From: a virus
Taxonomy: Duplodnaviria; Heunggongvirae; Uroviricota; Caudoviricetes
DNA length: 64,000 nt
Direction: 5' to 3' (one strand)
IMG/VR virus record: IMGVR_UViG_3300035701_000015
Coordinates: 12,009 to 76,008 of that record
Notes under the pieces: generated by a model
The model's input: the letters and a program-made list of their open reading frames with translations, nothing else
Told to the model about the DNA's origin: nothing
Databases searched by the model: none
Translations under genes and position numbers: made by a program
Part shown: piece by piece, positions 1,374 to 29,480 of the stretch
Position numbering within the stretch: the stretch's first letter is position 1
Layout: each line of letters opens with the position of its first letter

Positions 1374-1441
1374 AGAGCTGAATTGTGGGGCTTATCGACA
1401 AATTGTAAATTGTAAAGGATGCCTCACGAAAATCTTGCTCT
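1374..1441 (+). ncRNA. structured stem-loop element, family member Y0
   Basis: Outer stem agagc/gctct, TGAA internal loop, inner stem gtgggg/cctcac, TTATCG motif, 3' CTTGCTCT. Lies between tRNA-Met and tRNA-Pro. Confidence 0.4.
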
Positions 1442-1447
1442 TTAATA

Positions 1448-1522
1448 CGGGCAGTGGGCTAGTTGGTTTAGGTCGCTCGGTTCGGGGCCGAGAAAACGGC
1501 GGTTCGAATCCGCCCTGCCCGA
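1448..1522 (+). tRNA. tRNA-Pro (anticodon CGG)
   Basis: Acceptor cgggcag/ctgcccg, anticodon arm ctcgg-ttCGGgg-ccgag, T-arm ggcgg-ttcgaat-ccgcc. Confidence 0.55.
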
Positions 1523-1526
1523 AATA

Positions 1527-1593
1527 GAAGCTGAAGGAAAGTGGTTATCGTAAATGCAAATTACACAAACGCCATTTTCCGAACTCTTGCTTC
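1527..1593 (+). ncRNA. structured stem-loop element, family member Y1
   Basis: Outer stem gaagc/gcttc, TGAA, inner stem ggaaagtgg/ccattttcc, TTATCG, 3' CTTGCTTC. Homologous to the flanks of the element at 7598-7727. Confidence 0.45.
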
Positions 1594-1608
1594 TTTTTAG
1601 GAGACAAT

Positions 1609-2034
1609 ATGAAATACACCGAAGAGCCCAAAGATTTATTTTCAGTAGATTTTAAAAAATGGACTCCAGCTCATTGCATTTCGCTTGATTGTAAAATGGG
1701 AGCTGGAATCGCAGTACCAGTGAAGAAGAAGTTTAATCTTAGTGGTTTGTACGATGTCGTAGATGAGCTCGGTCTCGAGTACCCAGTTTGTGTACATCAC
1801 AACGGAGTCTACAACTTAATCACTAAGAAAAATTATTGGGACAAGCCAACATATGACACACTTGAAGGTGCTCTTATCAGCATGAGAGACCATGCTTTAA
1901 AGAATGGTATAAATCATATTGTGATGCCGAAGATTGGTTGTGGCATTGATGGACTTTCATGGTCCATAGTCAGAGAGTTTATCCAAGAAGTTTTTGATGA
2001 CACTGACATAGAAATTTTAATATGTTATATCTAA
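1609..2034 (+). CDS. Macro-domain protein (ADP-ribose binding/processing)
   Basis: GAGIA and PKIGCGIDG motifs typical of macro domains. Confidence 0.6.
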   Translation: MKYTEEPKDLFSVDFKKWTPAHCISLDCKMGAGIAVPVKKKFNLSGLYDVVDELGLEYPVCVHHNGVYNLITKKNYWDKPTYDTLEGALISMRDHALKNGINHIVMPKIGCGIDGLSWSIVREFIQEVFDDTDIEILICYI

Positions 2035-2050
2035 TGAAAAGGAGATAAAG

Positions 2051-2374
2051 ATGATAATGTTCGGAGATAGAATTCTTCTTGAGAAGATAGAAGAAAAAGT
2101 CGAAGAGAAAAAATCTGAGGGTGGAATTGTAATTCCTAATCAGGTTGAAGAAAGAAAACTGAAAAACAAACACATCTTTCGTGGAGTTATAAAACTAACT
2201 GGAAAAGATGTGAAACTGGTTGAAGCAAAAGATGTAGTGTTATTTAACATCATCAATACACAACAGATTGAGCTTGAAGGAAAAGAATTTTTTATCATGG
2301 AAGAAAAAAACCTTTTGGCTAAAATAGCTCCAGAAGCGAAGATTCAAGAAGTTGCGAAACTTATCAACATTTAA
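2051..2374 (+). CDS. groES: GroES-like co-chaperonin (Cpn10)
   Basis: GDRILLEK...SEGGIVIP...G.VI..G...V..GD.VLF pattern in a ~100 aa protein. Confidence 0.65.
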   Translation: MIMFGDRILLEKIEEKVEEKKSEGGIVIPNQVEERKLKNKHIFRGVIKLTGKDVKLVEAKDVVLFNIINTQQIELEGKEFFIMEEKNLLAKIAPEAKIQEVAKLINI

Positions 2375-2467
2375 GGAGGTGAGACTATGTTGTAGGCTCG
2401 CGATCGTGGTCCTCCCGTCTGAATTGATTTCTAACCAATTTCAATTCAAACTATAAGGAGAAAAACC

Positions 2468-2872
2468 ATGACTAAGGAACAGTATTTTCAATTAAAAGAA
2501 GAACAGAAGGAACTCGGAAAGAAAATCCGAGAAACGAAGGGCGGGTTCAGGGAAGATCAGAGAAACTTCTCTAAATGCCAGAGCACTGCTAATGATTATT
2601 ATAAAGGAAAAACAGACAGTGCTACTTGGGAAAAGATTAGACCCGAGTACAACAAGCTTAACGAGAAACAGTTTAAGTCGATGTGTGATTTGCATAAGAC
2701 GCAAAGAGAGTACAGACACAAACACATCATCTACTGTTTTGCTCGTGGAAAAACTATGAAACAAATTGAGCCTAAAGTTCGAGAGCACAATGAGCCCAAC
2801 CAAACAGAGCTTCAGAGACTTATGAAACTCTACGACGTTCGGGAACCTCTTGCATTAGAGGTCGCAATATGA
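2468..2872 (+). CDS. hypothetical protein
   Basis: ORF with an AGGAG ribosome-binding site upstream. Confidence 0.5.
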   Translation: MTKEQYFQLKEEQKELGKKIRETKGGFREDQRNFSKCQSTANDYYKGKTDSATWEKIRPEYNKLNEKQFKSMCDLHKTQREYRHKHIIYCFARGKTMKQIEPKVREHNEPNQTELQRLMKLYDVREPLALEVAI

Positions 2873-3204
2873 AAACCATAGAAGCTTACATGATTTATTG
2901 TGGCACTGGTTGTACATGTTGCAGTAGCGAAAACCATTACAGAGGTTTTTACAAGACAGAGGAAGAGGCGAATAGGAGAATTCAATACTTCTATTCTCCA
3001 ACTAGCAAGTTCTGGCCTCTTGCTTCACAATATGCAACAAGGGGAAGATACTCAGTCGAGAAGGTGACGACTGAAGAAATTGGAGACGGAAGGTTCATTT
3101 TGAACAATGATAAAATTCTCCAAGACTTGAGCTTTGTCGAGTTGAACGTTGACGGGTCAATAGAAAATAACGAGGATGATTATTTATTCTCGGATCTATA
3201 TTGA
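2869..3204 (+). CDS. hypothetical protein (Cys-rich N-terminus)
   Basis: ATGA start overlap with the upstream gene. Confidence 0.45.
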   Translation: MKTIEAYMIYCGTGCTCCSSENHYRGFYKTEEEANRRIQYFYSPTSKFWPLASQYATRGRYSVEKVTTEEIGDGRFILNNDKILQDLSFVELNVDGSIENNEDDYLFSDLY

Positions 3205-3208
3205 CTAT

Positions 3209-3226
3209 GGGGACTTCGGTCCTCCA
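3209..3226 (+). other. GC hairpin with TTCG tetraloop
   Basis: ggggacTTCGgtcctcc, immediately 5' of a tRNA. Confidence 0.3.
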
Positions 3227-3230
3227 AGAT

Positions 3231-3303
3231 GTCTCCGTAGCTCAATGGCAGAGCGGCTGCCTCTAAAGCAGTGTCAGTGAAGGTTCAAGTCCTTTCGGAG
3301 ACC
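3231..3303 (+). tRNA. putative amber-suppressor tRNA (anticodon CTA)
   Basis: Acceptor gtctccg/cggagac, D-arm gctc-aatggca-gagc, anticodon arm gctgc-ctCTAaa-gcagt, T-arm gaagg-ttcaagt-ccttt. Confidence 0.5.
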
Positions 3304-3513
3304 ACAACTATGGGCGATATAATTGGAGTTGTAATGCCTCACAGAAATAATATAATAGGAGTTGTTTATGAAAAAGATGGTCAGATTTATATGGCTGAAC
3401 CGATAGCAAATTTAACTTCAAAGAAAACTTCAGATCTGAACAATAAAAGTAATGACCATCTTATAAGGTCAATTGAAGACATTAAAAAAGTATATACAAT
3501 AAAGCAATTAAAG

Positions 3514-3586
3514 GGCCCCGTAGTTCACCGGATAGAACATTAGCCTTCTAAGCTAATTGTAGCAGGTTCGATTCCTGCCGGGGTCG
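3514..3586 (+). tRNA. tRNA-Arg (anticodon TCT)
   Basis: Anticodon arm ttagc-ctTCTaa-gctaa, T-arm gcagg-ttcgatt-cctgc. Confidence 0.6.
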
Positions 3587-3589
3587 AAT

Positions 3590-3952
3590 ATGTCACCAGT
3601 AACTAACAGCTATTATTTTGAAAGGATGCCGAATGGAAATATGTTTATGGCGCCCATAGTAAGACCTCTGCAAGAAGTGATATCTGAAAGAACTCAAGTA
3701 GCAGAATTCTTTCGTCAGGGTCCAAACGCCGAAGTTCTTGCTGGAGTTTGTGATCTGATAAAAGCTGATATGGTTTTTAAGAATAAGAAAATAATAATGA
3801 AGAATATGAAAGTTTCTACAAGTCTTGAGATGCAACACAAGATTGACATTTACAATACTATTACAGCAAAAGAATTAATAGAAGAATACAAGAAAAACAG
3901 AGACAACAATAACGAGAAAAAATATATGAAACGAATAAAGGATTACAAATGA
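3590..3952 (+). CDS. hypothetical protein
   Basis: ORF starting right after tRNA-Arg. Confidence 0.5.
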   Translation: MSPVTNSYYFERMPNGNMFMAPIVRPLQEVISERTQVAEFFRQGPNAEVLAGVCDLIKADMVFKNKKIIMKNMKVSTSLEMQHKIDIYNTITAKELIEEYKKNRDNNNEKKYMKRIKDYK

Positions 3953-4098
3953 GAAAATGTAATTGGACCGATTGTTTTAGAGAATCTGGTCATTGCGATA
4001 ATAATTTTAAGCATAAAGTATTTTATTATACTAAAAGGAACAAACACAGACGCAAATTATTGCTATGTGAAGAACATTTAAATACTCTTAGAAAATAG
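3949..4098 (+). CDS. small Cys/His-rich protein (49 aa)
   Basis: ATGA overlap with the upstream gene; CxxxxC...HC...CxxH spacing. Confidence 0.3.
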   Translation: MRKCNWTDCFRESGHCDNNFKHKVFYYTKRNKHRRKLLLCEEHLNTLRK

Positions 4099-4149
4099 AA
4101 GATAGAGCAGATGAAGTAATGGGATTTAAAATAATTGAAATTGTAGAAA

Positions 4150-4221
4150 GACTCCATCGTCCAACGGACAAGACAGAAGTTTCCTAAACTTCAAATCTGG
4201 GTTCAATTCCCAGTGGGGTCA
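4150..4221 (+). tRNA. tRNA-Arg (anticodon CCT), short D-stem
   Basis: Acceptor gactcca/tggggtc, anticodon arm gaagt-ttCCTaa-acttc, T-arm ctggg-ttcaatt-cccag. Confidence 0.5.
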
Positions 4222-4223
4222 AG

Positions 4224-4601
4224 ATGCCTTACGAGTATCAAAGAAAGTTAAAAGCTATCTATGACGTAATCGGTATGAGAGTTGAAAAAACTCCCATATT
4301 GCGAGAAAAAGGTGCAGTGATTATTGAAGATTTTGTAACTCTTCATTATCTGAAAAATAAAAAACTCGTCATATTAAAATGTGCTCCTGGTAGCCGTTTC
4401 ACCTTAGAATCGATAGCGCAAGAACTTGAAAGGAATTTAACTAAAAGCGACAAGCTTTCTGATTGGTGGCAAATTACTAATGAAGGCTTAGTCATGATCT
4501 TTGACATATACGGATATGAAGCTGTCAGGGCAGAAGACCAAAAGAGACTCGTTCAGCTTTTATTAAAGAGAGAGAGAGTTCCGAAAGTTAAAGCAAGATA
4601 A
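4224..4601 (+). CDS. hypothetical protein
   Basis: ORF. Confidence 0.5.
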   Translation: MPYEYQRKLKAIYDVIGMRVEKTPILREKGAVIIEDFVTLHYLKNKKLVILKCAPGSRFTLESIAQELERNLTKSDKLSDWWQITNEGLVMIFDIYGYEAVRAEDQKRLVQLLLKRERVPKVKAR

Positions 4602-4605
4602 TTAT

Positions 4606-4902
4606 ATGTATAGTTCGATGTATAAACTTTTTGGTAAATTCGTGAAATATAATTCATATATAAGATTGAATTACTCCTGGTTGCCTAAAGGTATAATGTA
4701 TATTTATGGTAAAACGGAGTTCACGCCTTATCCTTTAGCTATTAGTGGTTCTAAAATTTATACTAGACCAAACGACCCAATAAAAGTTTTACAGTCTAAT
4801 GATGCAGCAAAGAATTTTATACTAGTGAAACCCACTGAAAGAGAATGCAGAATTTTTATAAATAATATATTCGTCGCAGACTTTGGATATCATAATGAAT
4901 AA
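4606..4902 (+). CDS. hypothetical protein, paralog A
   Basis: Shares KLFGK...GIMY.YG...GSKIY...NFI..KPTE..C..FI.N with the next gene. Confidence 0.5.
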   Translation: MYSSMYKLFGKFVKYNSYIRLNYSWLPKGIMYIYGKTEFTPYPLAISGSKIYTRPNDPIKVLQSNDAAKNFILVKPTERECRIFINNIFVADFGYHNE

Positions 4903-5167
4903 ATCGATGAAGAAGCTTTTCGGGAAAGTAATAAAAGCTAAATCTGATAGCGCTGGTGAAGGGTGGTTAGGGATAATGTATGTCTACGGTTCTGAAATAG
5001 ACGATGGTTATGAGAGGGCTCATATCATAAGAGGTAGTAAGATTTATAAAGAAGAAATGCGATTCGGATTACCGGTAGCTGAAAAAGCTTCTAATTACAT
5101 AATAACAAAGCCCACTGAAAAGCAATGCAAGAACTTTATCATCAACGCTTTTAATGCCTTTGACTAA
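4883..5167 (+). CDS. hypothetical protein, paralog B
   Basis: Tandem paralog of 4606..4902. Confidence 0.5.
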   Translation: MDIIMNKSMKKLFGKVIKAKSDSAGEGWLGIMYVYGSEIDDGYERAHIIRGSKIYKEEMRFGLPVAEKASNYIITKPTEKQCKNFIINAFNAFD

Positions 5168-5176
5168 GATAAACTC

Positions 5177-5440
5177 ATGGAACTAAATCAAATTCTCCGC
5201 CTTGATGAATATGTTGGCTTAGTAGATAAAGGTGAAATAAATCCCAGTGAGTTAGAATTAGCACTGAAACTGTTAAAGTCTAAAGAGGATGCTCAAAGAT
5301 TAGCTTCTCGGCTTAAAAAAGTAGCACTTCGAAAAGAAGTTAAAAGAGCAAGAGAATTAGCTCAGTCATTCACTAAAAACATTTATGTTTCATTTTTTCT
5401 TGATGCTCTCGAAGAAAAACCCGTTGCTCAAGTCTCTTAA
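5177..5440 (+). CDS. hypothetical protein
   Basis: ORF ending immediately before a tRNA. Confidence 0.5.
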   Translation: MELNQILRLDEYVGLVDKGEINPSELELALKLLKSKEDAQRLASRLKKVALRKEVKRARELAQSFTKNIYVSFFLDALEEKPVAQVS

Positions 5441-5441
5441 T

Positions 5442-5516
5442 GGCTCCATCGTCTAAACGGTTTAGGATATCACTCCCTCAAAGTGAAGACTACGGGTTCA
5501 AGCCCCGTTGGAGCTA
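5442..5516 (+). tRNA. tRNA-Glu-like (anticodon CTC), predicted C33
   Basis: Acceptor ggctcca/tggagct, anticodon arm tcact-ccCTCaa-agtga, T-arm acggg-ttcaagc-cccgt. Confidence 0.45.
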
Positions 5517-5552
5517 AAGTTTCGATTCAATCGTATAATTAAAGCATAGATA

Positions 5553-5625
5553 GGGCGGTTAGCTCAACTGGAAGAGTATCTGGTCTACACCCAGAGGGTC
5601 GGGGGTTCAAATCCCTCCCCGCCCA
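5553..5625 (+). tRNA. tRNA-Val (anticodon TAC)
   Basis: Anticodon arm tctgg-tcTACac-ccaga, T-arm ggggg-ttcaaat-ccctc. Confidence 0.55.
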
Positions 5626-5649
5626 AAACTAAAAAGTGAAGGAGAAAAT

Positions 5650-6141
5650 ATGAAACAGATTTTCTGGTTCGTTCTTCTTTTCGCAACTTTGATTTGCACT
5701 GTAGCTTCTGCTGACTGGATCGGGATGGAATATGAGATAGAAGGTGGTTGGAGTCCCTTCGGTGGTTTCGGAGGTTATGAGGTAGCTCAAAGTAAATTTC
5801 TTACCATCGATGGAAAAACTTATTCTCTCTATTCGTTTGACCAGGAAGAGTGGAACGTTTTTTATCTGGAACTTTCCACTAGAGTTTGGCTTTGGGAGCA
5901 TATTTTTGTAGGAGGATCAGTCACTACGTTAATGAGCTTTGTGGGGGAGAAAAATTTTAATCCGTATTTCTCGAACTATATGTTTGAGAGCGGAGTTAAG
6001 TTCGGTTCTCTTGAATTGTTTTATTCTCACGATTGTACTCATCCTGTGACTCCCTATGCTTATTCTTATCGGCTCACGTCTCTTTGGGGAGAAGGAGGAG
6101 TTGACAGGATTGGATTTCGCTTAAAAGGTGGAATGAAATAA
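5650..6141 (+). CDS. secreted hypothetical protein
   Basis: N-terminal signal peptide MKQIFWFVLLFATLICTVASA. Confidence 0.55.
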   Translation: MKQIFWFVLLFATLICTVASADWIGMEYEIEGGWSPFGGFGGYEVAQSKFLTIDGKTYSLYSFDQEEWNVFYLELSTRVWLWEHIFVGGSVTTLMSFVGEKNFNPYFSNYMFESGVKFGSLELFYSHDCTHPVTPYAYSYRLTSLWGEGGVDRIGFRLKGGMK

Positions 6142-6147
6142 TTTTAA

Positions 6148-6219: not shown

Positions 6220-6222
6220 ATC

Positions 6223-6323: not shown

Positions 6324-6587
6324 ATGAGCAAAAACAAAATTTACGTTGTTACTATGTACCGATACGGGAACAAACAGAACGATTCATATGTTCTGGGAGC
6401 TTTTTCGAAGAAGCAAAAAGCTTTCGACGAAGCTGATGCAGAAGAAGCTTATCGAGGTGGGAAATATTCTGGTGAAGTACTGGAGTTTAACCCAAATGAA
6501 TCGATTCGCATTACAGAGAAGGCGAAGATCGTTAGAGTGGTCAAACTTCATCCCGAACTCGGTAGCATACCCAGAGGCGCACTCTAA
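6324..6587 (+). CDS. hypothetical protein
   Basis: Preferred over the overlapping frame 6346..6747. Confidence 0.5.
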   Translation: MSKNKIYVVTMYRYGNKQNDSYVLGAFSKKQKAFDEADAEEAYRGGKYSGEVLEFNPNESIRITEKAKIVRVVKLHPELGSIPRGAL

Positions 6588-7521: not shown

Positions 7522-7594
7522 GGGGCTGTAGCTCAATTGGGAGAGCGCCTGACCTGCAATCAGGAGGCAGGGAGTTCAAATCTCCTCAGCTCCA
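7522..7594 (+). tRNA. tRNA-Ala (anticodon TGC)
   Basis: Acceptor ggggctg/cagctcc, anticodon arm cctga-ccTGCaa-tcagg. Confidence 0.6.
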
Positions 7595-7597
7595 AAT

Positions 7598-7727
7598 GAA
7601 GCTGAACAGAAAGAGGTTATCGTACTAGGAACGAGAGGTCATTGGTTCGAATCCAATCCTCGGCAAATCATGCCGAGGTAGCCTAGTGGTTAGGGCGCTA
7701 AAACATCTTTTTCTAAAAACTTGCTTC
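7598..7727 (+). ncRNA. modular structured RNA (Y2) with permuted tRNA-like module
   Basis: Outer stem gaagc/gcttc, TGAA, inner stem agaaagagg/ctttttct. Apical module is T-arm attgg-ttcgaat-ccaat (7641-7657), acceptor hairpin cctcggc-aaatcat-gccgagg (7658-7678), then D-arm gcct-agtggtta-gggc (7681-7696). Confidence 0.4.
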
Positions 7728-7747
7728 TTAATTTTTGAGGTGATAAT

Positions 7748-8098
7748 ATGGGAAAGCTAAAGAGAGTAGAAGTTCGAGACATTTTAGAACAAGTAGTAGA
7801 CTTTGACAGTCTTACTCTAGAAGATGCTCGTAAGTTACTCGATAGTTTTTTAAGTAGATATGCTAGTATTTATCACAATATTTATTTTGAACAAAATTAT
7901 CAGCACGACATAAGCGATGAACTTCAGCTCATTGGCAACCGATTCGAGAACGACGAGGAATATGGAAGACGACTCGCTGATCAGAAGATGTTTCGAGACA
8001 ACAAGAAGAAAGAGAAAGAACAAAAGGAAGCTGAAGAATACAAAGAATATTTAAGACTCAGAGAAAAGTTTAATGGGTCGGTTAAGGGTAATTGGTGA
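7748..8098 (+). CDS. hypothetical protein
   Basis: The 3' end overlaps tRNA-Tyr by 24 nt. Confidence 0.5.
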   Translation: MGKLKRVEVRDILEQVVDFDSLTLEDARKLLDSFLSRYASIYHNIYFEQNYQHDISDELQLIGNRFENDEEYGRRLADQKMFRDNKKKEKEQKEAEEYKEYLRLREKFNGSVKGNW

Positions 8099-8163
8099 AC
8101 CCTCCAGTCTGTAAAACTGGCGCCTTTCGGCTAACACTGCAGGTTCGAGTCCTGCCCGGCCCA
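8075..8163 (+). tRNA. tRNA-Tyr (anticodon GTA), type II
   Basis: Acceptor gggtcgg/ccggccc, anticodon arm ccagt-ctGTAaa-actgg, 18-nt variable arm, T-arm gcagg-ttcgagt-cctgc. Confidence 0.55.
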
Positions 8164-8164
8164 A

Positions 8165-9137: not shown

Positions 9138-9211
9138 GGGTCAGTAACGCAATGGTTTAGCGTACCAGACTTTTAATCTGGGAGTTGGAGGTTCGAATCC
9201 TCTCTGACCCA
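9138..9211 (+). tRNA. tRNA-Lys (anticodon TTT)
   Basis: Acceptor gggtcag/ctgaccc, anticodon arm ccaga-ctTTTaa-tctgg, T-arm ggagg-ttcgaat-cctct. Confidence 0.6.
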
Positions 9212-9214
9212 AAA

Positions 9215-9346
9215 GAAAGACTGACCGTGAAGGGGTTACCGACTGATAATCGAGAGGTCGTGAGTTCAAATCTCACTCAGTCTGAAAAGACTGATAGCTC
9301 AGGCTGGTAGAGCACTAAAATATCCTTTTGCAATTTCTTGTCTTTC
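9215..9346 (+). ncRNA. modular structured RNA (Y3) with degenerate tRNA-Ile-like module and duplicated 5' half
   Basis: Outer stem gaaagac/gtctttc, inner stem aagggg/cctttt. Degenerate tRNA-like at 9218-9284 (acceptor agactga/tcagtct, loop ctGATaa, T-arm gtgag-ttcaaat-ctcac). GAAA-capped acceptor hairpin, then a second agactga-ta-gctc-aggctggta-gagc 5' half (9288-9313). Confidence 0.4.
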
Positions 9347-9359
9347 TTTTTAAAAAACT

Positions 9360-9719
9360 ATGAACAAACAGATCACTCAAAATCTTTTAAAAGATCGAAC
9401 ATGTAATAATTGCGACCGCATGGAGGGTTACCGTCTCAGGCACGACCTCCCAATATGCTCTTTGAAAAAGAGAAGCAAGTATAAAACTTGTGAAGAATGG
9501 ACCGAAAGAGGTTATTTGTCATCCTCTATGTCGAGTAAAGAGTGGGTTGATATTATGTCAGTGAAAAAAGAAATAGTCTTTCCAATTAATCGCGCTGCTA
9601 CAATTCGAGGAGTACGAGTTTATATCACTGATACACGTGATCTCATTTATGAACAAAATTTTCCAGAATCTTATGTTGTTCCAACTGTGGGTGGTTCTAT
9701 AACTCTAAAGTTTACATAA
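9360..9719 (+). CDS. small Cys-motif family protein (LLKDRTCNNC)
   Basis: N-terminal QNLLKDRTCNNC motif shared with at least 9 other ORFs in this window. Confidence 0.5.
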   Translation: MNKQITQNLLKDRTCNNCDRMEGYRLRHDLPICSLKKRSKYKTCEEWTERGYLSSSMSSKEWVDIMSVKKEIVFPINRAATIRGVRVYITDTRDLIYEQNFPESYVVPTVGGSITLKFT

Positions 9720-9730
9720 GATAAAACTAA

Positions 9731-9850
9731 CAGCTGAAGTGATGAGTTTATCGGAAACTAGTTGTCTAGGTTCGACTCCTGGCTCCCATTTTTGGGATGT
9801 AGTGTAATGGTAGCACACCAGTCAAAACAACTTATTACGTTTACTTGCTG
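9731..9850 (+). ncRNA. modular structured RNA (Y4) with degenerate permuted tRNA-like module
   Basis: Outer stem cagc/gctg with TGAAG. T-arm-like tagg-ttcgact-cctgg, T-rich-capped acceptor-like hairpin, D-arm gtgt-aatggta-gcac (9802-9816), 3' CTTGCTG. Confidence 0.3.
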
Positions 9851-9927
9851 TTATTTATGAGTGGGATTATCAAAAAGAGTGAAGAGATAAGGTAGAAAAA
9901 TATGCGGAAATCCATTTAATTGATGAA

Positions 9928-12845: not shown

Positions 12846-13292
12846 TTGATCGTTAGACAGTTCAGAGGTTCTTTTGAATTTCTTAGTAATTTTCAAGAGA
12901 TACGTCCTTACATGTACATCGACGGAAAATATTGGTCAACTGTAGAACATTATTTTCAAGCAATGAAGACGCTTGATGAAGAAGAGCAAGAAAAAATCAG
13001 ATTAGCTACGCATCCAGCAATTTCTAAAATATTAGGAAAGAAAGTTCATCTGAGAGAAGATTGGGACAAAGTAAAAGAAGAGATCATGCTCAAGGCTCTA
13101 AGAGTCAAATTCGAGAACATTGAACTAAGACAGAAGTTGCTAGATACGGATGATGATGTTCTCGAAGAGGGCAACACCTGGAATGATCGTTATTGGGGCA
13201 AAGATCTCAACACTGGGTTTGGCCACAACAGACTCGGAAATCTTTTGATGCAAGTCAGAACAGAAATAAAAGAAGATGAAAATAATAGCTGA
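12846..13292 (+). CDS. NADAR/YbiA-like domain protein (DUF1768)
   Basis: FLSNF...YWSTVEHYFQAMK...REDWDKVK...ALRVKF...WG.DLNTGFGHNRLGNLLMQVR. TTG start. Confidence 0.6.
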   Translation: MIVRQFRGSFEFLSNFQEIRPYMYIDGKYWSTVEHYFQAMKTLDEEEQEKIRLATHPAISKILGKKVHLREDWDKVKEEIMLKALRVKFENIELRQKLLDTDDDVLEEGNTWNDRYWGKDLNTGFGHNRLGNLLMQVRTEIKEDENNS

Positions 13293-18122: not shown

Positions 18123-18240
18123 GAATTGGGTATTCAATATATTTGTGAATGTGGCTTAAAGTTAACTAAAGAAGAAGCTGAAAATAAACGCTGCACTTTG
18201 TTTCGTTGCACAGTAAAACGAGCTAGGAAACGTTTGAAAA

Positions 18241-24454: not shown

Positions 24455-24898
24455 ATGAGTATAGATACTAGAGCATATTACAAAGACGTTACTTCTAAAG
24501 AAATCTTTCACTTTATTAGATTGTTCTTCGATCCTGACGCTAAACATCGCGGAATGAAAGAGATCAGCGAAGACTATTCACAAATTATTTTTACGTACAA
24601 CAAGAAAGAAAATCGTCAAATGCACGTGCATAAAAAAGTCATAGACGTTAAAGCGGATATGAAAAAATGGAATACAAATAACCCAACAGATATTGATAGC
24701 GGAATTTATGTTCAGCAGGGTTTACCTGATAAAACTAAAGGTACATCTCTTAGTTTAGGAATGTGGGGTGCTTCTGTAGAGATCTTCAAAGTGATAGCTT
24801 TACTTTTTGGCGGCTATATAGACGATAATGATTCTGACGCAAAAGGTTATTATTACGTAGAAAAAGATCATCGCAAACTAATTAAAAAGGCTTTTTAA
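24455..24898 (+). CDS. hypothetical protein
   Basis: ORF. Confidence 0.5.
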   Translation: MSIDTRAYYKDVTSKEIFHFIRLFFDPDAKHRGMKEISEDYSQIIFTYNKKENRQMHVHKKVIDVKADMKKWNTNNPTDIDSGIYVQQGLPDKTKGTSLSLGMWGASVEIFKVIALLFGGYIDDNDSDAKGYYYVEKDHRKLIKKAF

Positions 24899-24901
24899 GA
24901 A

Positions 24902-25210
24902 ATGACTATACAAAAAATTAATGAAAGAGTTCCCGGCTGGTTTTCGATGGACGTCACACGCTCTTCGATACGTATCTTCTATATGTTTGATAAAGTTAAA
25001 GCTAAAAGAAAAACTATTAACTCTAACAAGTTTTTTATGTTCGATCGGATCGTGGTAGCTAAATTATACAACCGTTTACATCTTACATTAATGAGTGGTC
25101 CTTTTGCATGGGTCGGTGATTCTACTTTAAAACCATATAAAATAACAGAAGAAGAATGCCGTGCAATAATTAGAGGTAGCTTTGTTCGAAGCAGTGACTT
25201 TCAGAGTTGA
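24902..25210 (+). CDS. hypothetical protein
   Basis: ORF. Confidence 0.45.
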   Translation: MTIQKINERVPGWFSMDVTRSSIRIFYMFDKVKAKRKTINSNKFFMFDRIVVAKLYNRLHLTLMSGPFAWVGDSTLKPYKITEEECRAIIRGSFVRSSDFQS

Positions 25211-25240
25211 AGCGTGATGACTATTCACTTTGTTAAATAA

Positions 25241-25492
25241 ATGATTTATTATATAAACAAGTTCAACGTCCCAAACACTGACGATTGGCGTTTTGCAGTA
25301 TGGCAAGTAGAGCGCAATAGAAAAAATACTCGTTGGTATACTTGGATCAAAAAAATTTATGACCCTGAAAACCGTTTTGATAAGTGGTATGTGCTCGATC
25401 CTACAGCAGCTACTATAGCTGAAAGCGAGCACAAGCTTATAGAAATGATTTTCTTGATTGCAAATTGGAGAGGCATCAAAGCTAAGAGGTAG
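25241..25492 (+). CDS. hypothetical protein
   Basis: ORF. Confidence 0.45.
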   Translation: MIYYINKFNVPNTDDWRFAVWQVERNRKNTRWYTWIKKIYDPENRFDKWYVLDPTAATIAESEHKLIEMIFLIANWRGIKAKR

Positions 25493-25497
25493 AACTT

Positions 25498-25821
25498 ATG
25501 AAGTTTAGAAAAGCCACTAACGACGAAGCAACAGGCACTCACCAAACGGGTATATTGCACACAGACTATCATAAAATAGTTAGTGTATTTGGTGAGCCCG
25601 AAGAAAGTAATTCAGATAAAATTCAAGTGGAATGGATTTTAAAATTTGAAGATAGAACTATAGCTACTGTATATGATTATAGAGCAATAAGAATTCCTGA
25701 AAAAAATAAAGATTGGTACATCGGCGGAAAAAACAAAAAATCTGTATATTATGTACTTGCTCTTGTTTTAAAACATTATAGAGCTTTAATAAAAGATGTA
25801 TTTGAGGCTAATTTAAAGTAA
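25498..25821 (+). CDS. hypothetical protein
   Basis: ORF. Confidence 0.45.
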   Translation: MKFRKATNDEATGTHQTGILHTDYHKIVSVFGEPEESNSDKIQVEWILKFEDRTIATVYDYRAIRIPEKNKDWYIGGKNKKSVYYVLALVLKHYRALIKDVFEANLK

Positions 25822-26884
25822 ATTTCTCACCTTTGTAATTCACGAAATTATTGTCACCTAAATAATAATCTGGAGAGATAGATATTTTTCCACCCCCATG
25901 TGGCAAATCCACAATATATTGCGGAACAGCCAAACCAGAAGTAAATCCTCTCAATCCTTTTACGATGTTAACTCCATCTTCGACTGTAGTTCTAAAGTGC
26001 TTAGAACCTACAATGTTGTCGCAATGATAGATATAATAAGGTCGAACTCTAATCTTGAGTAGTTTCTGCATTAGTGATTTCATAGTCGCTACGTCGTCGT
26101 TAACGCCCTTTAGCAGCACTGTTTGGCTACCAAGCGGTATTCCAGCATCGGCTAATTTATTGCAAGCTTCTGTCGTCTCCTCAGTGATTTCATCGGGATG
26201 GGTGAAATGAATGTTCACATAAAGTGGATGATACTTTTTAAGCATAGCGACAAGCTCATCTGTTATTCTCATAGGTAGTACAACTGGAACTTTCGTCCCT
26301 ATTCTTATGACCTCTACATGCGGAATGCTTCTGATCTCTTTGATCAAGATCTCAAGCATCTCATCTGACATAGTAAGAGGATCACCACCAGAAATAATAA
26401 CGTCTCTTATTTCAGTATGTTCCCGAATATAATCTATTGACTTTTCCCATTCGTCTCTTTCTTCTCCACCAACTATTCTTGAGCGAGTACAGTAACGACA
26501 GTTAGCAGCACAGAAAGTTGTAGACAAGAATAAAACTCTATCAGGATAACGATGCACTATGCCACGAGTTGGGCTTTGTTTTTCTTCATCTAAAGGATCT
26601 TCGTCCTCATCGGGTGACTTTATTAATTCGTGAATTGTTGGCACCATAGTCTTTCTTATTGCTGAGCTCTTCTTAACGATTTCTGCAAAGTATGGTGTCA
26701 ATCTAAAAGGCAAATCTATTTGCTCGAAAGCTTTGACTTCATCATCTGTCAAGTCAATAATAGAGCGCAACTGTTCGAGAGTCGTGATTGAATTTTTGAT
26801 TTGCCATTTCCAGCTTTTACTTGGAGGCTTGTCTTCACACGGTGGGGGTTTATCGTCTTCGGGTTTACTAATGTTAGTGTCCAT
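25808..26884 (-). CDS. KamA-family radical SAM protein (lysine 2,3-aminomutase-like)
   Basis: CAANCRYCTRS (CxxxCxxC) cluster, GGDPL, and overall KamA/EpmB-like architecture. Confidence 0.7.
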   Translation of the reverse strand: MDTNISKPEDDKPPPCEDKPPSKSWKWQIKNSITTLEQLRSIIDLTDDEVKAFEQIDLPFRLTPYFAEIVKKSSAIRKTMVPTIHELIKSPDEDEDPLDEEKQSPTRGIVHRYPDRVLFLSTTFCAANCRYCTRSRIVGGEERDEWEKSIDYIREHTEIRDVIISGGDPLTMSDEMLEILIKEIRSIPHVEVIRIGTKVPVVLPMRITDELVAMLKKYHPLYVNIHFTHPDEITEETTEACNKLADAGIPLGSQTVLLKGVNDDVATMKSLMQKLLKIRVRPYYIYHCDNIVGSKHFRTTVEDGVNIVKGLRGFTSGLAVPQYIVDLPHGGGKISISPDYYLGDNNFVNYKGEKFTLN

Positions 26885-26971
26885 CTTCCTTATATCTTTA
26901 TCTTAGCACATAATTTATTATAATCTCAGTGACTAATATTTATGCGAGCATGATTCAAGTTAATCCAATAA

Positions 26972-27044
26972 GGGCGATTAGCTCAGCTGGCAGAGCGCTA
27001 CTTCGACATGGTAGAAGTCGTTAGTTCAAATCTAACATCGCCCA
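26972..27044 (+). tRNA. tRNA-Val (anticodon GAC)
   Basis: Acceptor gggcgat/atcgccc, anticodon arm ctact-tcGACat-ggtag, T-arm gttag-ttcaaat-ctaac. Confidence 0.55.
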
Positions 27045-27064
27045 AAATATAAGGAGACAAATAT

Positions 27065-27241
27065 ATGTTAAAGGGTATAAAACCAAAAGCAGAATACAGT
27101 TTAGAAATAAAAGGGAAAATGATTGGAGGAAGTGGTACAAAAGTGAATGAAACAGAAAAACCAATTTTTCCTTTCTCCACTAAAAGAAAAATTATTCCCA
27201 AAGCTACTTATTCAGTTGAAATAAACAAAGGGCAGTCTTAA
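27065..27241 (+). CDS. small hypothetical protein (58 aa)
   Basis: AAGGAGA RBS; internal repeat KAEYSLEIKGK / KATYSVEINKG. Confidence 0.3.
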   Translation: MLKGIKPKAEYSLEIKGKMIGGSGTKVNETEKPIFPFSTKRKIIPKATYSVEINKGQS

Positions 27242-27254
27242 GACTGCCCTTTAA
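27229..27254. terminator. bidirectional terminator hairpin
   Basis: agggcagtcttaagactgccct between convergent genes. Confidence 0.5.
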
Positions 27255-27255
27255 A

Positions 27256-28197
27256 TTAACGAAACTCAGTTTTCTTTTGTTCTATTGAATAGGATGTTGG
27301 AAGGCCTGTAGTTTTTACATCTTCTGGAATTTGAAAATTCTTAAATGCATAATAATATTTAAGAGTTTCAGATAATTCGCCTTTACCATATAACGCTTCG
27401 GGTATAGCTCCTTTTCCCTCATCCCAATATTTATCGATCACTTCATATTCATTAGTAAACAAAGAAAGAAGAACCCAGTCGGGCCTATTATTGAAAGTTG
27501 CCATCAAATCATCTATTCTTGCCACCAAAAGTTTTATAGATTCTGTAGGTACGTTCAAAGTATCGGGACCTCTGTAATCTATTCTAAACGAAGCGTCGTT
27601 CCTGCATATTGGCAAATTAGAAATTCTTTCTCCCATTTTATGCATGAAAGCGGCTATTCCTTTTTTGTATGTTTTCTTATCGTTGTAATTCGGATTGAAA
27701 TTAGTAGCTACTTTCATATAAGCAACGGGGAGAAAGAAATTGATTGAGGGGGTCTTGAGTAAGCAATTCCAAAGCGCATCAAATGAAGTCTGAATTTGTT
27801 CGTCGTTCATCTTCTGCTCAAGTGGAACTCTATTTGTATAATATCTCACAATTTGAAAATACTGTTCTCTCAACCTTTCTTTTCTTTCATTTATTGGCAT
27901 TCGCTCCCAATTATTTGTTACCTCTATGTTAGATCGCGTTCGAATGATTTGCTCGGTATCTCTAACATATTGATGATACATCATAATCATGACGAAACTC
28001 ATAGCTATAACTACGAAAATGAAAACTGCAACTAGTCTTGTAAATGTGTGAATGATAGTTTTACTGGGAGCCATTAGCTTCTGGATGGGCTCAGCTAATC
28101 TTTCTAACAGTTTCATATCTTTGTCGCTGGGTTTTTCTGACTTGATGTACTTGGGCTCAGAATCTGCCCCTCGCATCTGCATATCTACACCGTTCAT
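27256..28197 (-). CDS. membrane-anchored hypothetical protein
   Basis: One TM helix (LVAVFIFVVIAMSFVMIMM). Co-oriented with the KamA-like gene. Confidence 0.5.
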   Translation of the reverse strand: MNGVDMQMRGADSEPKYIKSEKPSDKDMKLLERLAEPIQKLMAPSKTIIHTFTRLVAVFIFVVIAMSFVMIMMYHQYVRDTEQIIRTRSNIEVTNNWERMPINERKERLREQYFQIVRYYTNRVPLEQKMNDEQIQTSFDALWNCLLKTPSINFFLPVAYMKVATNFNPNYNDKKTYKKGIAAFMHKMGERISNLPICRNDASFRIDYRGPDTLNVPTESIKLLVARIDDLMATFNNRPDWVLLSLFTNEYEVIDKYWDEGKGAIPEALYGKGELSETLKYYYAFKNFQIPEDVKTTGLPTSYSIEQKKTEFR

Positions 28198-28369
28198 AAT
28201 TATCCTCCTGAATGTTTTATAGATTTATGCGCATAAATGATATAAAGATTTTTTCAAAAAATTTTGAATTTTCTATAAAATTCGCATAGTTATCCACAAA
28301 GATAAATAAGAATAAGTTCTGAAGCCGTTTAGAATTTTACACAACTACATACATAGATTAAAAAAGATT

Positions 28370-28444
28370 GAGCTGCTAGTAAGGGGTTACCGTTATGATT
28401 CAGCCGTAGGCTGAAAACCAACGCCCTTTGCTGATCACTTGCTC
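28370..28444 (+). ncRNA. structured stem-loop element, family member Y5
   Basis: Outer stem gagc/gctc, inner stem aagggg/cccttt, GGGGTTACCG identical to Y3, 3' CACTTGCTCTTCTT. A T-arm-like hairpin follows at 28464-28486. Confidence 0.4.
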
Positions 28445-29044
28445 TTCTTATTAATAGGAATAGACGGGAGTTTCGATTTCCGTTTATTATATCATCTAAT
28501 TCCTTTTTAAAGGAGGTGGATCTCTCAGTAAGATACACTATGAAAGGAAATGGGATAGAGTGATCTATCCAGCTTGACGTTAATGATGTTTAAGTCGAGC
28601 TGACTTAGGGTGATTACCGTAACTACAAATTGTTCGTACATTGCTAATGCAATGTATTGGTTTTTTCTACTGCGGTAGAAAAATAGCAAATCGGGCAGCG
28701 TCCGATTTACCAAAACGCTCGTCAAGTTCATCCTAAACTTTTTTGCTCGCAATTTTTTGTTGTTCTTTGACACATTCGAAATCGGTCGGTCCTATATCTA
28801 CTGATACATAAGTAACCGAAAGTAGGCCTTTCGGGATGAGACTGAAAGGCTGAACTAACCAAAGTAAATTGGGATGATAAAAGAATGAAAATTAATGAGA
28901 TATGTTAGAAGGCGAAAAAGTGACGGTAGACGAAAATATTATAGACTATTATGATGCTTAACTTATTAGTTAAGCAGCAGGACAGGGTTATCCTGACTGA
29001 GATTTATGATAAACAATTCTCTCCCTCTCAGTAAAAACTCTCTT

Positions 29045-29069
29045 GGTCGCAGACTGGTCGCAGACTGGT
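29045..29069 (+). repeat. tandem 11-bp repeat
   Basis: ggtcgcagact occurs 2.3 times in tandem. Confidence 0.6.
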
Positions 29070-29098
29070 TTCAGAAGTGTTGCAGTGGCTTTGGCTGT

Positions 29099-29163
29099 CG
29101 AGAGTAAAATCTGATTCTTCTCTTACTCTCGGCAGCTCTTTTAACTTTGAAAAAAGAGAGCTG
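29099..29163 (+). other. two adjacent long hairpins
   Basis: cgagagtaa...ttactctcg (9 bp) and cagctctttt...aaaagagagctg (10-12 bp). Confidence 0.5.
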
Positions 29164-29301
29164 AAGTGAAAGCGGTTACCGGTGAAAATTTTTGTCTAAT
29201 AAACAGAAACCAGCTGGATTCGATTGCCAGCAAACTAGAGCAATCTAGTAAAACTCGTTTTCCAATTACTTGCTCTTTATTATTGCATATATAAAACAAA
29301 T

Positions 29302-29361
29302 TAGCTGAATGTTGGTGGTTATCGCCTTGTAATCGAACACCCATCAACTAACAACTTGCTA
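29302..29361 (+). ncRNA. structured stem-loop element, family member Y6
   Basis: Outer stem tagc/gcta, TGAA, inner stem gttggtgg/ccatcaac, GGTGGTTATCG, 3' CAACTTGCTA. Confidence 0.4.
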
Positions 29362-29391
29362 ATCTTATTTTATCGCATACTTAAAAACGAT

Positions 29392-29480
29392 CAGCTGAAT
29401 GATTGGTGGTTATCGTTACCATTCACACGACGATCCCTGACATAGTTGGGGACGTAATCCCCATCGATCAACACTTGCTG
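29392..29480 (+). ncRNA. structured stem-loop element, family member Y7
   Basis: Outer stem cagc/gctg, TGAA, inner stem gattggtgg/ccatcgatc, apical hairpin gggga-cgtaa-tcccc, 3' CACTTGCTG. Confidence 0.4.

What the first reader, a model, noticed from the sequence alone, without database searches (positions are those of the whole stretch)
1374..29480. Family of at least eight conserved modular stem-loop RNAs with covarying helices
Eight copies share one architecture: 1374-1441, 1527-1593, 7598-7727, 9215-9346, 9731-9850, 28370-28444, 29302-29361, 29392-29480. There is also a partial copy near 18174. Each has an outer closing stem (RAGC/GCTY, or gaaagac/gtctttc), a 5' TGAA internal loop, a purine-rich inner strand pairing a pyrimidine-rich partner, a TTAYCG motif, a variable apical module, and a 3' CTTGCT box. 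The inner stems differ in sequence but stay complementary: gtgggg/cctcac, agtgg/ccatt, aagggg/cccttt, gttggtgg/ccatcaac, agaaagagg/ctttttct. That argues for selection on RNA structure rather than on coding sequence. Copies sit directly after tRNAs or in the long noncoding region upstream of the Ro60 gene.
Basis: seen in the sequence. Interest (0 to 1): 0.85.

Follow-up and report, generated by a model that had tools for sequence, protein, structure and literature searches.

The report
Ten phage Y RNAs serving Ro60
The repeated stem-loops are real and are a ten-member family of Y RNAs, the small RNAs that partner the Ro60 protein. This phage encodes Ro60 next to half of them, so it is a known kind of RNA, but unusually expanded and partly wedged between the phage's tRNA genes.

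Summary
All eight listed copies exist at the stated coordinates on the + strand. The 'partial copy' at 18174 is noise.

Every copy has the same core. An outer stem ends in C-G, a bulged U, G.U and A-U (5' AGC-U-GA / 3' UU-GCU). A 7-10 bp inner stem follows, carrying a conserved G.U. Then come a UUAYCG junction, a swappable apical module and a T-rich tail.

Covariation is strong. Nine of 14 core pairs change on both sides within the window, and 10 of 14 across 33 elements from six related phages (0/500 shuffles reach the observed score).

Three copies (7598, 9214, 9729) carry a permuted tRNA-like domain: T arm, closed acceptor hairpin, D arm. This is the YrlA architecture, and they give sub-threshold Rfam YrlA hits. 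Every related Ro60 locus with upstream sequence has an array of the same element directly upstream of the gene. The layout also matches the YrlA/YrlB pair upstream of Ro in mycobacteriophage Tonenili (GCCGAAGG...UUAUC versus GCUGAAGG...UUAUCG).

Verdict: these are bona fide Y RNA homologues and probably Ro60 partners. The kind is known. What is new is the copy number, the modular diversity, and the placement 2-3 nt after tRNA genes 20-28 kb from Ro60.

The parts
1373..1442 (+). Y RNA-like element C1 (70 nt, short apical hairpin). Lies between the tRNA at 1294-1370 (2 nt gap) and tRNA-Pro at 1448-1522 (5 nt gap).
   Evidence: Family model R1 49.4 bits, E 4e-9. RNAfold z -4.24. Parsed as outer 6 bp, inner 9 bp.
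1526..1594 (+). Y RNA-like element C2 (69 nt). Starts 3 nt after tRNA-Pro and ends 15 nt before the macro-domain ORF at 1609.
   Evidence: R1 58.3 bits, E 4e-11. RNAfold z -3.53. Parsed.
7598..7727 (+). YrlA-type element C3 (130 nt). Y stem plus a permuted tRNA-like domain: T arm GGTTCGAATCC, 7-bp closed acceptor hairpin, D arm TAGCCTAGTGGTTAGGGC. Starts 3 nt after tRNA-Ala(UGC).
   Evidence: Rfam YrlA RF02553 29.8 bits, E 5e-5 locally, below the gathering score of 69. RNAalifold recovers the arms.
9214..9347 (+). YrlA-type element C4 (134 nt). Starts 2 nt after tRNA-Lys(UUU). Its 5' half can also fold as a cloverleaf.
   Evidence: Rfam YrlA 42.9 bits (E 3.7e-8 locally). Rfam tRNA 30.4 bits for 9218-9284. 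RNAfold shows the T arm, acceptor hairpin and D arm.
9729..9852 (+). YrlA-type element C5 (124 nt). Follows ORF 9360-9719 and lies 76 nt before tRNA-Ala(GGC). Its inner stem resembles the Ro60-proximal YrlA-type copies of related phages.
   Evidence: Rfam YrlA 17.2 bits. Aligned with L129_4261, L131_471 and L132_5609 in A3.
28370..28444 (+). Y RNA-like element C6 (75 nt). Variant with UGC instead of UGA. First element of the Ro60-proximal array.
   Evidence: R1 24 bits, E 0.003. RNAfold z -3.53.
28596..28749 (+). Y RNA-like element C7 (154 nt) with a three-hairpin apical module. Not in the finding. Orthologues exist in five phages.
   Evidence: Parsed. Orthologue alignment A4 shows a compensatory outer-stem change (CGAGC/GCTCG versus CTAGC/GCTAG) and a covarying hairpin.
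29156..29277 (+). Y RNA-like element C8 (122 nt) with a T-arm-like hairpin (GCTGGATTCGATTGCCAGC) and two other hairpins but no D arm. Not in the finding.
   Evidence: Parsed. Orthologues L001_9256 and L130_4072 have compensatory changes.
29300..29363 (+). Y RNA-like element C9 (64 nt, minimal form). Preceded by the box GCATATATAAAA.
   Evidence: R1 50.4 bits, E 2e-9. Flanks.
29390..29482 (+). Y RNA-like element C10 (93 nt). Preceded by the box GCATACTTAAAA. Last element, 221 nt before the Ro60 start codon.
   Evidence: Parsed as outer 6 bp, inner 10 bp. RNAfold z -2.56.
29704..31326 (+). Phage Ro60 (TROVE plus vWA) gene, the presumed protein partner of the ten RNAs.
   Evidence: Pfam vWA_Ro60 7e-31 and TROVE 4e-20. 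Full-length match to X. laevis Ro60 1YVP (E 7e-56) and D. radiodurans Rsr 2NVO (E 3e-51).
61139..62452 (+). CCA-adding enzyme gene. This is context: the tRNAs that precede C1-C4 have no encoded CCA, so tRNA 3' processing must cut at or near the 5' end of the Y RNA.
   Evidence: Pfam PolyA_pol head 5e-40 and tRNA_NucTran2_2. tRNA ends read.

Best explanation
The ten elements are paralogous phage-encoded Y RNAs, in YrlA-like and YrlB-like forms, that partner the phage's own Ro60 protein.

Shown here. All ten share a conserved, covarying two-stem core whose base is a bulged helix: C-G, bulged U, G.U, A-U. Its 5' strand GCUGAA fits the bacterial Ro-binding motif GNCGAA, and its UUAY junction fits the YUAY that begins the YrlA V loop. 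Three copies carry the YrlA tRNA-like domain. The family travels with Ro60 in every related phage locus that includes upstream sequence.

Inferred. Ro60 binds the bulged helix on the outside of its ring. The variable apical modules (tRNA mimic, T-arm-only, three-hairpin or tiny loop) act as interchangeable adaptors or gates. They could tether Ro60 to different host or phage partners, such as PNPase in a RYPER-type RNA degradation machine or tRNA-handling enzymes.

Also inferred. The five Ro60-proximal copies are probably made as discrete small RNAs. A GCATAYWTAAA box lies 12-22 nt upstream of several of them, and all have U-rich tails. The five distal copies are probably co-transcribed with the tRNA array and released by tRNA processing. 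Cleavage at the 3' end of a CCA-less tRNA would create the Y RNA 5' end 2-3 nt downstream, and for C1 RNase P at the next tRNA would create the 3' end.
For: Core anatomy and covariation:
- 9 of 14 pairs change on both sides among the 10 window copies, and 10 of 14 among 33 elements, with 0/500 shuffles reaching the score.
- G.U at the helix base is invariant (33/33). The C-G before the bulge is 33/33. An internal G.U is present in 30/33.

Independent detection:
- A model built only from window copies finds 3-7 elements just upstream of Ro60 in relatives, with E from 2e-10 to 1e-3.
- The parser gives 34 elements, 33 of them distinct.

tRNA-like domain:
- Rfam YrlA hits of 42.9, 29.8 and 17.2 bits.
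- Unconstrained RNAalifold gives T arm, acceptor hairpin and D arm, with 18 of 32 pairs compensatory.

Partner and known layout:
- Ro60 is confirmed.
- The known layout is GNCGAAN0-1G, YUAY, one tRNA-like plus one hairpin Y RNA per species, and Yrn2 co-transcribed with a tRNA (PMC4201824).
- Phage Ro60 binds two upstream Yrl RNAs and host PNPase (PMC12135203).
- Mycobacteriophage Tonenili has GCCGAAGG...GUCGG-UUAUC...GAAAACA upstream of its Ro gene.

Flanks:
- The 10 nt downstream of the elements are 59% T, against a 28% background.
Against: - There is no expression or binding data. Ends, promoters and Ro60 binding are all inferred.
- No copy reaches the Rfam YrlA gathering score (best 42.9 against 69). 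No Rfam family hit the Ro60-proximal copies at E up to 10.
- The bulged base is U, not the C of GNCGAA/GGUCCGA.
- Five copies lie 20-28 kb from Ro60, outside the 4 kb neighbourhood used to define bacterial Y RNAs.
- C2, C3 and C4 end 13-21 nt before an ORF start codon, so a cis role in those mRNAs is not excluded.
- The sigma-70 promoter and terminator scans were uninformative.
- The core alignment was register-fitted to the structure, which inflates the percentage paired, though not the shuffle contrast.
Confidence: 0.8

Rival explanations
1. The elements are cis-acting punctuation in polycistronic transcripts. They would act as structured insulators or 5'-end stabilisers left on the downstream mRNA after tRNA 3' processing, or as leaky terminators. 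On this view they are not trans-acting Ro60 partners.
For: - C2, C3 and C4 sit exactly between a tRNA and the ribosome-binding site of the next ORF, ending 13-21 nt before the ATG.
- All copies have T-rich tails.
Against: - The Ro60-proximal arrays hold 5-7 elements back to back with no ORFs between them.
- Conserved unpaired motifs and the invariant bulge and G.U pairs are not needed for a stabiliser or terminator.
- tRNA-like modules with intact T- and D-loop consensus are hard to explain this way.
- The family co-occurs with Ro60 in every relative.
Confidence: 0.08
2. At least the Ro60-proximal elements are Ro60-binding sites within a long Ro60 mRNA leader. They would mediate autoregulation of Ro60 synthesis in cis rather than act as independent RNAs.
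For: - The array lies on the same strand and ends 221 nt before the Ro60 start codon.
- No strong terminator is detected between C10 and the gene.
Against: - This does not explain the five copies 20-28 kb upstream.
- Each element has its own T-rich tail, and several have a conserved upstream box.
- In studied systems the upstream Y RNAs are separate RNAs processed from precursors (PMC4201824).
Confidence: 0.07
3. The elements are decaying relics of tRNA gene duplication in the tRNA array (tRNA-dimer junctions and fragments) with no function of their own.
For: - C4's 5' half scores as a tRNA (30.4 bits), and AAAGACTGA is repeated inside it.
- T arm, acceptor hairpin and D arm are what a tRNA-dimer junction looks like, a caveat noted in PMC4201824.
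Against: - Seven copies have no tRNA-like part yet keep the same core.
- Helices are maintained by compensatory changes across six phages whose Ro60 proteins are 67-88% identical.
- Relics would not keep invariant G.U pairs and unpaired motifs.
Confidence: 0.03

Closest known systems
YrlA (bacterial and mycobacteriophage tRNA-like Y RNA; Rfam RF02553; Chen et al. 2014, PMC4201824)
   Same: - A long 5'/3' stem carries the Ro-binding motif near the 5' end.
- A YUAY motif starts the V region.
- The order is T arm, closed acceptor-like hairpin, D arm.
- It is encoded on the same strand as Ro60.
- C3, C4 and C5 show all of these features.
   Different: - The motif is GCUGAA (bulged U) rather than GNCGAA.
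- Scores are below the Rfam gathering threshold.
- There are three YrlA-type paralogues instead of one.
- They lie 20-22 kb from Ro60, and two of them directly follow tRNA genes.
YrlB / Yrn2 type short hairpin Y RNAs (Salmonella, M. smegmatis, D. radiodurans; PMC4201824)
   Same: - A second, shorter Y RNA has the Ro-binding stem and a small apical loop.
- D. radiodurans Yrn2 is co-transcribed with a tRNA and Yrn1.
- The Tonenili YrlB-like RNA reads GCCGAAGG-CTCGTCGG-TTATC...GAAAACA, the same layout as C2.
   Different: Here there are seven non-YrlA copies with unrelated apical modules ranging from 16 to 108 nt, against one such RNA per characterised species.
Thermus phage phiLo Yrl1/Yrl2 with phage Ro60 (PMC12135203, 2025)
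   Same: Y RNA-like genes lie directly upstream of a phage Ro60 gene. A stem-bulge-stem layout carries a CGAA-type motif. Binding to phage Ro60 and to host PNPase was shown experimentally for that phage.
   Different: phiLo has two RNAs and this window has ten. The phiLo Ro60 is only distantly related to this one (E 1e-6 against 7e-56 for Xenopus Ro60).
Metazoan Y RNAs (Rfam RF00019)
   Same: From the literature: Ro60 binds a conserved bulged helix formed by the 5' and 3' ends, GGUC-C-GA / UUGACC, with a bulged pyrimidine followed by G.U and A-U. The geometry matches AGC-U-GA / UUGCU. There are 2-4 paralogues per species with variable loops.
   Different: - There was no Rfam Y_RNA match at E up to 10.
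- Metazoan Y RNAs have no tRNA-like domain.
- Their biogenesis differs (Pol III transcripts).
tRNA genes and tRNA-like structures
   Same: The T- and D-arm consensus is present, with U8/A9-like spacing after the acceptor strand. C4's 5' half reaches the tRNA gathering score (30.4 against 29).
   Different: The order is circularly permuted, the acceptor stem is closed by a loop, and the anticodon arm is replaced by the Y stem. Most copies have no tRNA-like part.

Membership tests
Bacterial/phage Y RNA (YrlA/YrlB sense of Chen et al. 2014) | Encoded near a Ro60/Rsr (TROVE) gene on the same strand | tested here: met
   Ro60 lies at 29704-31326. C6-C10 lie within 1.4 kb upstream on the same strand. 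C1-C5 are on the same strand but 20-28 kb away, outside the published 4 kb window. Relatives keep arrays directly upstream of Ro60.
Bacterial/phage Y RNA (YrlA/YrlB sense of Chen et al. 2014) | GNCGAAN0-1G motif near the 5' end, within a stem formed by the 5' and 3' ends (the Ro-binding site) | tested here: inconclusive
   All ten copies have G-C-U-G-A-(A/C), or GCUGC in C6, at the 5' end inside a covarying 5'/3' stem. This differs from GNCGAA at one position, the bulged C to U. The geometry is the same, but the literal motif is not met.
Bacterial/phage Y RNA (YrlA/YrlB sense of Chen et al. 2014) | At least one Y RNA per genome has a tRNA-like domain (T arm, acceptor-like stem-loop, D arm), with YUAY starting the V region | tested here: met
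   C3, C4 and C5 meet this. UUAY is invariant in the 10 window copies and present in 32 of 33 elements.
Bacterial/phage Y RNA (YrlA/YrlB sense of Chen et al. 2014) | Physically bound and stabilised by Ro60 | not testable with these tools
   This needs RIP or EMSA with the phage Ro60.
Rfam YrlA RF02553 | Covariance-model score at or above the gathering score (69 bits) | tested here: not met
   The best score is 42.9 bits (C4), then 29.8 (C3) and 17.2 (C5). There were no hits at the gathering threshold. The model also misses the loci around Ro in Tonenili, Phosso and Riptide at E up to 1e-3, so it is narrow.
Metazoan Y RNA, Rfam RF00019 | A match to the Y_RNA covariance model | tested here: not met
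   There was no Y_RNA hit at E up to 10 in 28200-29720, 7590-7740 or 9205-9870.
Canonical tRNA | A cloverleaf with an open acceptor stem and an anticodon arm | tested here: not met
   ARAGORN calls none of the ten. Only the 5' half of C4 reaches the Rfam tRNA gathering score, as an alternative fold (30.4 bits). The domain order is permuted.
Intrinsic terminators / repeated extragenic palindromes | A simple GC-rich hairpin plus a T run, with no conserved unpaired motifs, in either orientation | tested here: not met
   The terminator scan does not call the elements. All copies lie on one strand with conserved unpaired motifs and G.U pairs. A T-rich tail is present.

The most novel reading that the evidence does not exclude
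The phage has expanded Y RNAs into a ten-member library of interchangeable adaptor modules. Part of this library is wired into its 32-gene tRNA array, so tRNA-processing enzymes would release it. One Ro60 ring could then be directed at many different RNA targets or partners. Examples are surveillance of the phage's own tRNAs, or decoys and countermeasures against host tRNA-targeting defences.

Three observations would also point to phage tRNA arrays as the place where tRNA-like Y RNAs are repeatedly born from tRNA genes: the retained cloverleaf in C4, the relocated YrlA-type copies, and a related phage (L133) whose units keep the native tRNA order with the Y stem in place of the anticodon arm.
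Probability: 0.15. Interest if true: 0.75.

Novelty: new variant of a known kind. Interest (0 to 1): 0.55.

Why it matters
Ro60/Y RNA particles are conserved from bacteria to humans, where Ro60 is a lupus and Sjogren autoantigen. How the variable Y RNA modules specify function is still open.

A phage lineage with ten paralogues gives a natural series for testing this. They share one protein-binding core and carry very different apical modules, from a 16-nt loop to a full tRNA mimic.

The copies that directly follow tRNA genes suggest a simple biogenesis route through tRNA processing. With the permuted units in a related phage, they also give concrete intermediates for the proposed origin of Y RNAs from tRNAs.

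Practically, the family is missed by Rfam, so a new covariance model would improve annotation of uncultured phage genomes.

Tried and rejected
- **18174 'partial copy'.** Rejected. It scores 10.5 bits, E 3.8, and only GAAGCTGAA matches.
- **Wide pattern scan of IMG/VR.** AGCTGAAN{7,12}GGTTAYCG returned 120 single chance hits. None had the 3' half.
- **Other window proteins as probes.** Relatives of the macro-domain protein (L124-L127) are unrelated phages without elements or tRNAs. ORF 9360-9719 and the metallophosphatase gave no relatives. I therefore could not test whether the tRNA-adjacent copies are conserved in relatives.
- **Genome scan.** The YrlA-type pattern hit only Streptomyces eurocidicus (L134). 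I estimate about nine chance matches in a collection of that size, and nothing else supports the hit, so I treat it as chance or unclear.
- **Nearest cultured phage.** Megablast against cultured phages found no match. The closest cultured-phage Ro60 is about 31% identical.
- **Promoters and terminators.** The sigma-70 scans were not enriched and call none of the elements.
- **Rfam on cultured Ro60 phages.** The YrlA model found nothing near Ro in Phosso, Tonenili or Riptide, so it could not be used to count Y RNAs in cultured phages.
- **Family model on long copies.** R1 cannot span the long apical inserts, so those copies score only 10-18 bits. They rest on the parser, RNAfold and RNAalifold instead.
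- **Annual Review on bacterial Ro60 (PMC10870794).** Not held.

Full report
**Context.** The window is phage-like. It carries 32 tRNA genes on the + strand (29 confirmed by Rfam at the gathering threshold). It also encodes a Ro60 orthologue at 29704-31326, with Pfam TROVE and vWA_Ro60 domains and full-length matches to Xenopus Ro60 1YVP (E 7e-56) and Deinococcus Rsr 2NVO. Other genes include a CCA-adding enzyme, a split DnaE with an intein, and macro and NADAR domain proteins. It has no close relative among cultured phages.

**Observation.** Two more complete copies were missed: C7 at 28596-28749 and C8 at 29156-29277. The 'partial copy' at 18174 shares only GAAGCTGAA and scores at noise level (10.5 bits, E 3.8).

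A rule-based parser finds exactly these ten on the + strand. Sixty dinucleotide shuffles give a mean of 0.93 and a maximum of 4, and the - strand gives four minimal-score hits. Unconstrained RNAfold recovers the same two nested stems in nine of the ten. For C7 it recovers the inner stem only, because the folded stretch ended before the 3' outer strand. Z-scores run from -1.9 to -4.2.

**Anatomy.** Each element has the following parts:
- A 4-8 bp outer stem that ends in an invariant C-G.
- A short asymmetric internal loop.
- A 7-10 bp purine-rich/pyrimidine-rich inner stem with a conserved internal G.U.
- The junction motif UUAYCG.
- A variable apical module of 16-108 nt.
- Often an A-rich AAAAC junction before the 3' strand.
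- A T-rich tail: 59% T in the 10 nt downstream, against a 28% background.

**Covariation.** I extracted the 14 core pairs into an ungapped alignment.
- In the ten window copies, 98.6% of cells pair and 9 of 14 pairs change on both sides. The covariation score is 0.738 against 0.180 in shuffles (0/500), and slid registers reach at most 0.21.
- With 33 distinct elements from six phages, 10 of 14 pairs change on both sides (115 cells). The score is 0.692 against 0.182 (0/500).
- The G.U at the helix base is 33/33, the C-G before the bulge is 33/33, and the internal G.U is 30/33. These G.U pairs would be C.A mismatches on the other strand, so the + strand is the RNA.

One caveat applies: the register of the 3' strand was chosen to maximise pairing. 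However, nine consecutive pairs at one of about 20 offsets have a chance probability of about 0.003 per element. RNAalifold also found the stems without any constraint.

**Relatives.** Ro60 proteins 67-88% identical occur on three IMG/VR contigs (the same phage three times) and five metagenome contigs. A covariance model built only from trimmed window copies (R1) finds 3-7 elements immediately upstream of Ro60 in every locus that includes upstream sequence. E-values run from 2e-10 to 1e-3, and the parser adds the long-insert copies. tRNA-Val(GAC) lies upstream in three of these loci, as it does in the window, so the loci are syntenic.

Orthologous classes are recognisable:
- C7-type in five phages.
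- C8-type in at least three phages.
- YrlA-type in three of the relatives.

Each class shows compensatory changes in the apical hairpins as well. An exact-pattern scan also recovered a more distant phage contig, L133, with an array in front of an ORF whose N-terminus looks Ro60-like.

**Identity.** C3, C4 and C5 carry, in order, a T arm (GGTTCGAATCC, AGTTCAAATCT, GGTTCGACTCC), a closed 6-7 bp acceptor-like hairpin, the UA spacer, and a D arm (for example TAGCTCAGGCTGGTAGAGC). This is the circularly permuted tRNA-like domain that defines YrlA. Rfam YrlA aligns to them end to end at 42.9, 29.8 and 17.2 bits, below the gathering score of 69. RNAalifold on six such copies gives all the arms, with 18 of 32 pairs compensatory.

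Chen et al. 2014 (PMC4201824) set out the defining features:
- YrlA-like RNAs lie within 4 kb of Ro60 on the same strand, in 254 bacteria and 22 phages.
- A GNCGAAN0-1G motif sits near the 5' end.
- A conserved YUAY begins the V loop.
- There are at least two Y RNAs per characterised species, one tRNA-like and one a long hairpin.
- In Deinococcus a Y RNA is co-transcribed with a tRNA.

Here GCUGAA differs from GNCGAA only at the bulged pyrimidine, and UUAY is the YUAY. Reading the region upstream of Ro in mycobacteriophage Tonenili, I find a YrlA-like and a YrlB-like RNA. The latter runs GCCGAAGG-CTCGTCGG-TTATC...GAAAACA...TTTT, the same layout as C2 (GCTGAAGG-AAAGTGG-TTATCG...ACAAACG...TTTTT).

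Thermus phage phiLo has two Yrl RNAs upstream of its Ro60. They bind that Ro60 and form a complex with host PNPase (PMC12135203). The ten elements are therefore Y RNA homologues. Failing the Rfam threshold is weak counter-evidence, because that model also finds nothing near Ro in three cultured Ro60 phages.

**Mechanism (inferred).** Ro60 most likely binds the bulged helix, as in the Xenopus structure and the Deinococcus footprint cited in PMC4201824. The apical modules would be the variable 'business end', acting as tethers or gates as in the RYPER complex.

Arrangement suggests two biogenesis routes.
- Ro60-proximal copies sit 20-150 nt apart (apart from a roughly 400 nt gap between C7 and C8). 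A GCATAYWTAAA box lies 12-22 nt upstream of C9, C10 and three elements in relatives, and all have U-rich tails. This fits individual small transcripts.
- Distal copies C1-C4 begin 2-3 nt after the discriminator base of tRNAs that lack an encoded CCA. C1 ends 5 nt before the next tRNA. tRNA 3' processing and RNase P would therefore release them, and the phage supplies its own CCA-adding enzyme.

None of this is shown experimentally.

**Rivals.**
- A purely cis role as mRNA leader, stabiliser or terminator is suggested because C2, C3 and C4 end 13-21 nt before ORF start codons. It does not explain ORF-free arrays, conserved unpaired motifs or the tRNA mimicry.
- Autoregulatory sites in a Ro60 leader cannot explain the distal copies.
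- Decaying tRNA duplicates are contradicted by compensatory evolution across phages and by the seven copies that have no tRNA-like part.

**Novelty.** The kind is known, both for Y RNAs with Ro60 and for phages specifically. Literature searches found no description of large Y RNA arrays in phages or of Y RNAs interleaved with a phage tRNA array. Four things are new:
- Ten paralogues in one genome, against two in the characterised bacterial and phage systems and two to four in vertebrates.
- Three separate tRNA-like paralogues.
- Seven other apical designs, including a 64-nt minimal form (a relative has a 51-nt form).
- Five copies that lie 20-28 kb from Ro60, four of them directly after tRNA genes.

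It is also a divergent subfamily invisible to Rfam. I rate it a new variant of a known kind, of moderate interest.

Noticed in passing
L133 (IMGVR_UViG_3300018954_000017), minus strand, about 660 to 130: A related phage has a promoter-like TTGACA...TAGTAT, then one short Y element, then three tandem units in native tRNA order. In those units the acceptor ends are open and the Y stem, capped by a tetraloop, replaces the anticodon arm. Rfam tRNA scores 49.5 bits with a 52-nt insertion. A Ro60-like ORF start follows. This is the opposite circular permutation to YrlA.
   Followed up: partly
window 9214-9347 (C4): The 5' half (9218-9284) folds alternatively as a cloverleaf that passes the Rfam tRNA gathering score (30.4 bits), with an Ile-like CUGAUAA pseudo-anticodon loop. 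AAAGACTGA occurs twice (9216 and 9285), as expected if the element arose from a tandem tRNA duplication.
   Followed up: partly
window 28750-29156, and the matching stretches of L001, L129, L130 and L132: There is a conserved non-coding block between the C7-type and C8-type elements in five phages. Invariant runs include GTCTATAT and AAGTA-C-G, followed by GGCGAAA...GACGGTAGACGAAAA. It has no Rfam match and no ORF. In L001 an HNH-like ORF is inserted nearby.
   Followed up: partly
window 29280-29296 and 29370-29386; L001 7893-7906 and 9232-9245; L130 about 6553-6566: The box GCATAYWTAAA(A) lies 12-22 nt upstream of several elements in three phages. It may be a phage-specific -10-only promoter that resembles T4 late TATAAATA. 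It is not enriched in the window overall (15 matches observed at up to 1 mismatch, 13.8 expected).
   Followed up: partly
window 3231-3303: A tRNA with anticodon CUA (amber suppressor, called 'Pyl' by ARAGORN; Rfam tRNA 60.8 bits) hints at stop-codon recoding or suppression by the phage.
   Followed up: no
window 1294-1370 and 8074-8164: Two atypical tRNAs with low Rfam scores (33.1 and 35.3 bits). The first is called Gly(GCC) at an odd position, but its anticodon stem-loop reads CCTGT-CTCATAA-GCAGG, which is a CAT anticodon, and its D region is enlarged.
   Followed up: no
window 52756-55005 and 57221-58648: DNA polymerase III alpha is split into two ORFs in swapped order. The PHP/N-terminal part lies downstream and ends in an intein/HINT fragment, which suggests a split-intein DnaE.
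   Followed up: no
window 1609-2034, 12846-13292 and 61139-62452: Macro-domain, NADAR-domain and CCA-adding enzyme genes accompany the tRNA array. They suggest ADP-ribose reversal and tRNA repair or maturation functions, which may be relevant to conflicts over tRNAs.
   Followed up: no
L137 (Streptomyces phage Riptide) and L136 (Mycobacterium phage Tonenili): In cultured actinophages the Ro-like gene also sits inside or beside the tRNA array. The Y RNAs visible upstream of Tonenili Ro (L136 about 5670-5930) are not annotated in the record and are missed by Rfam YrlA at E up to 1e-3.
   Followed up: partly
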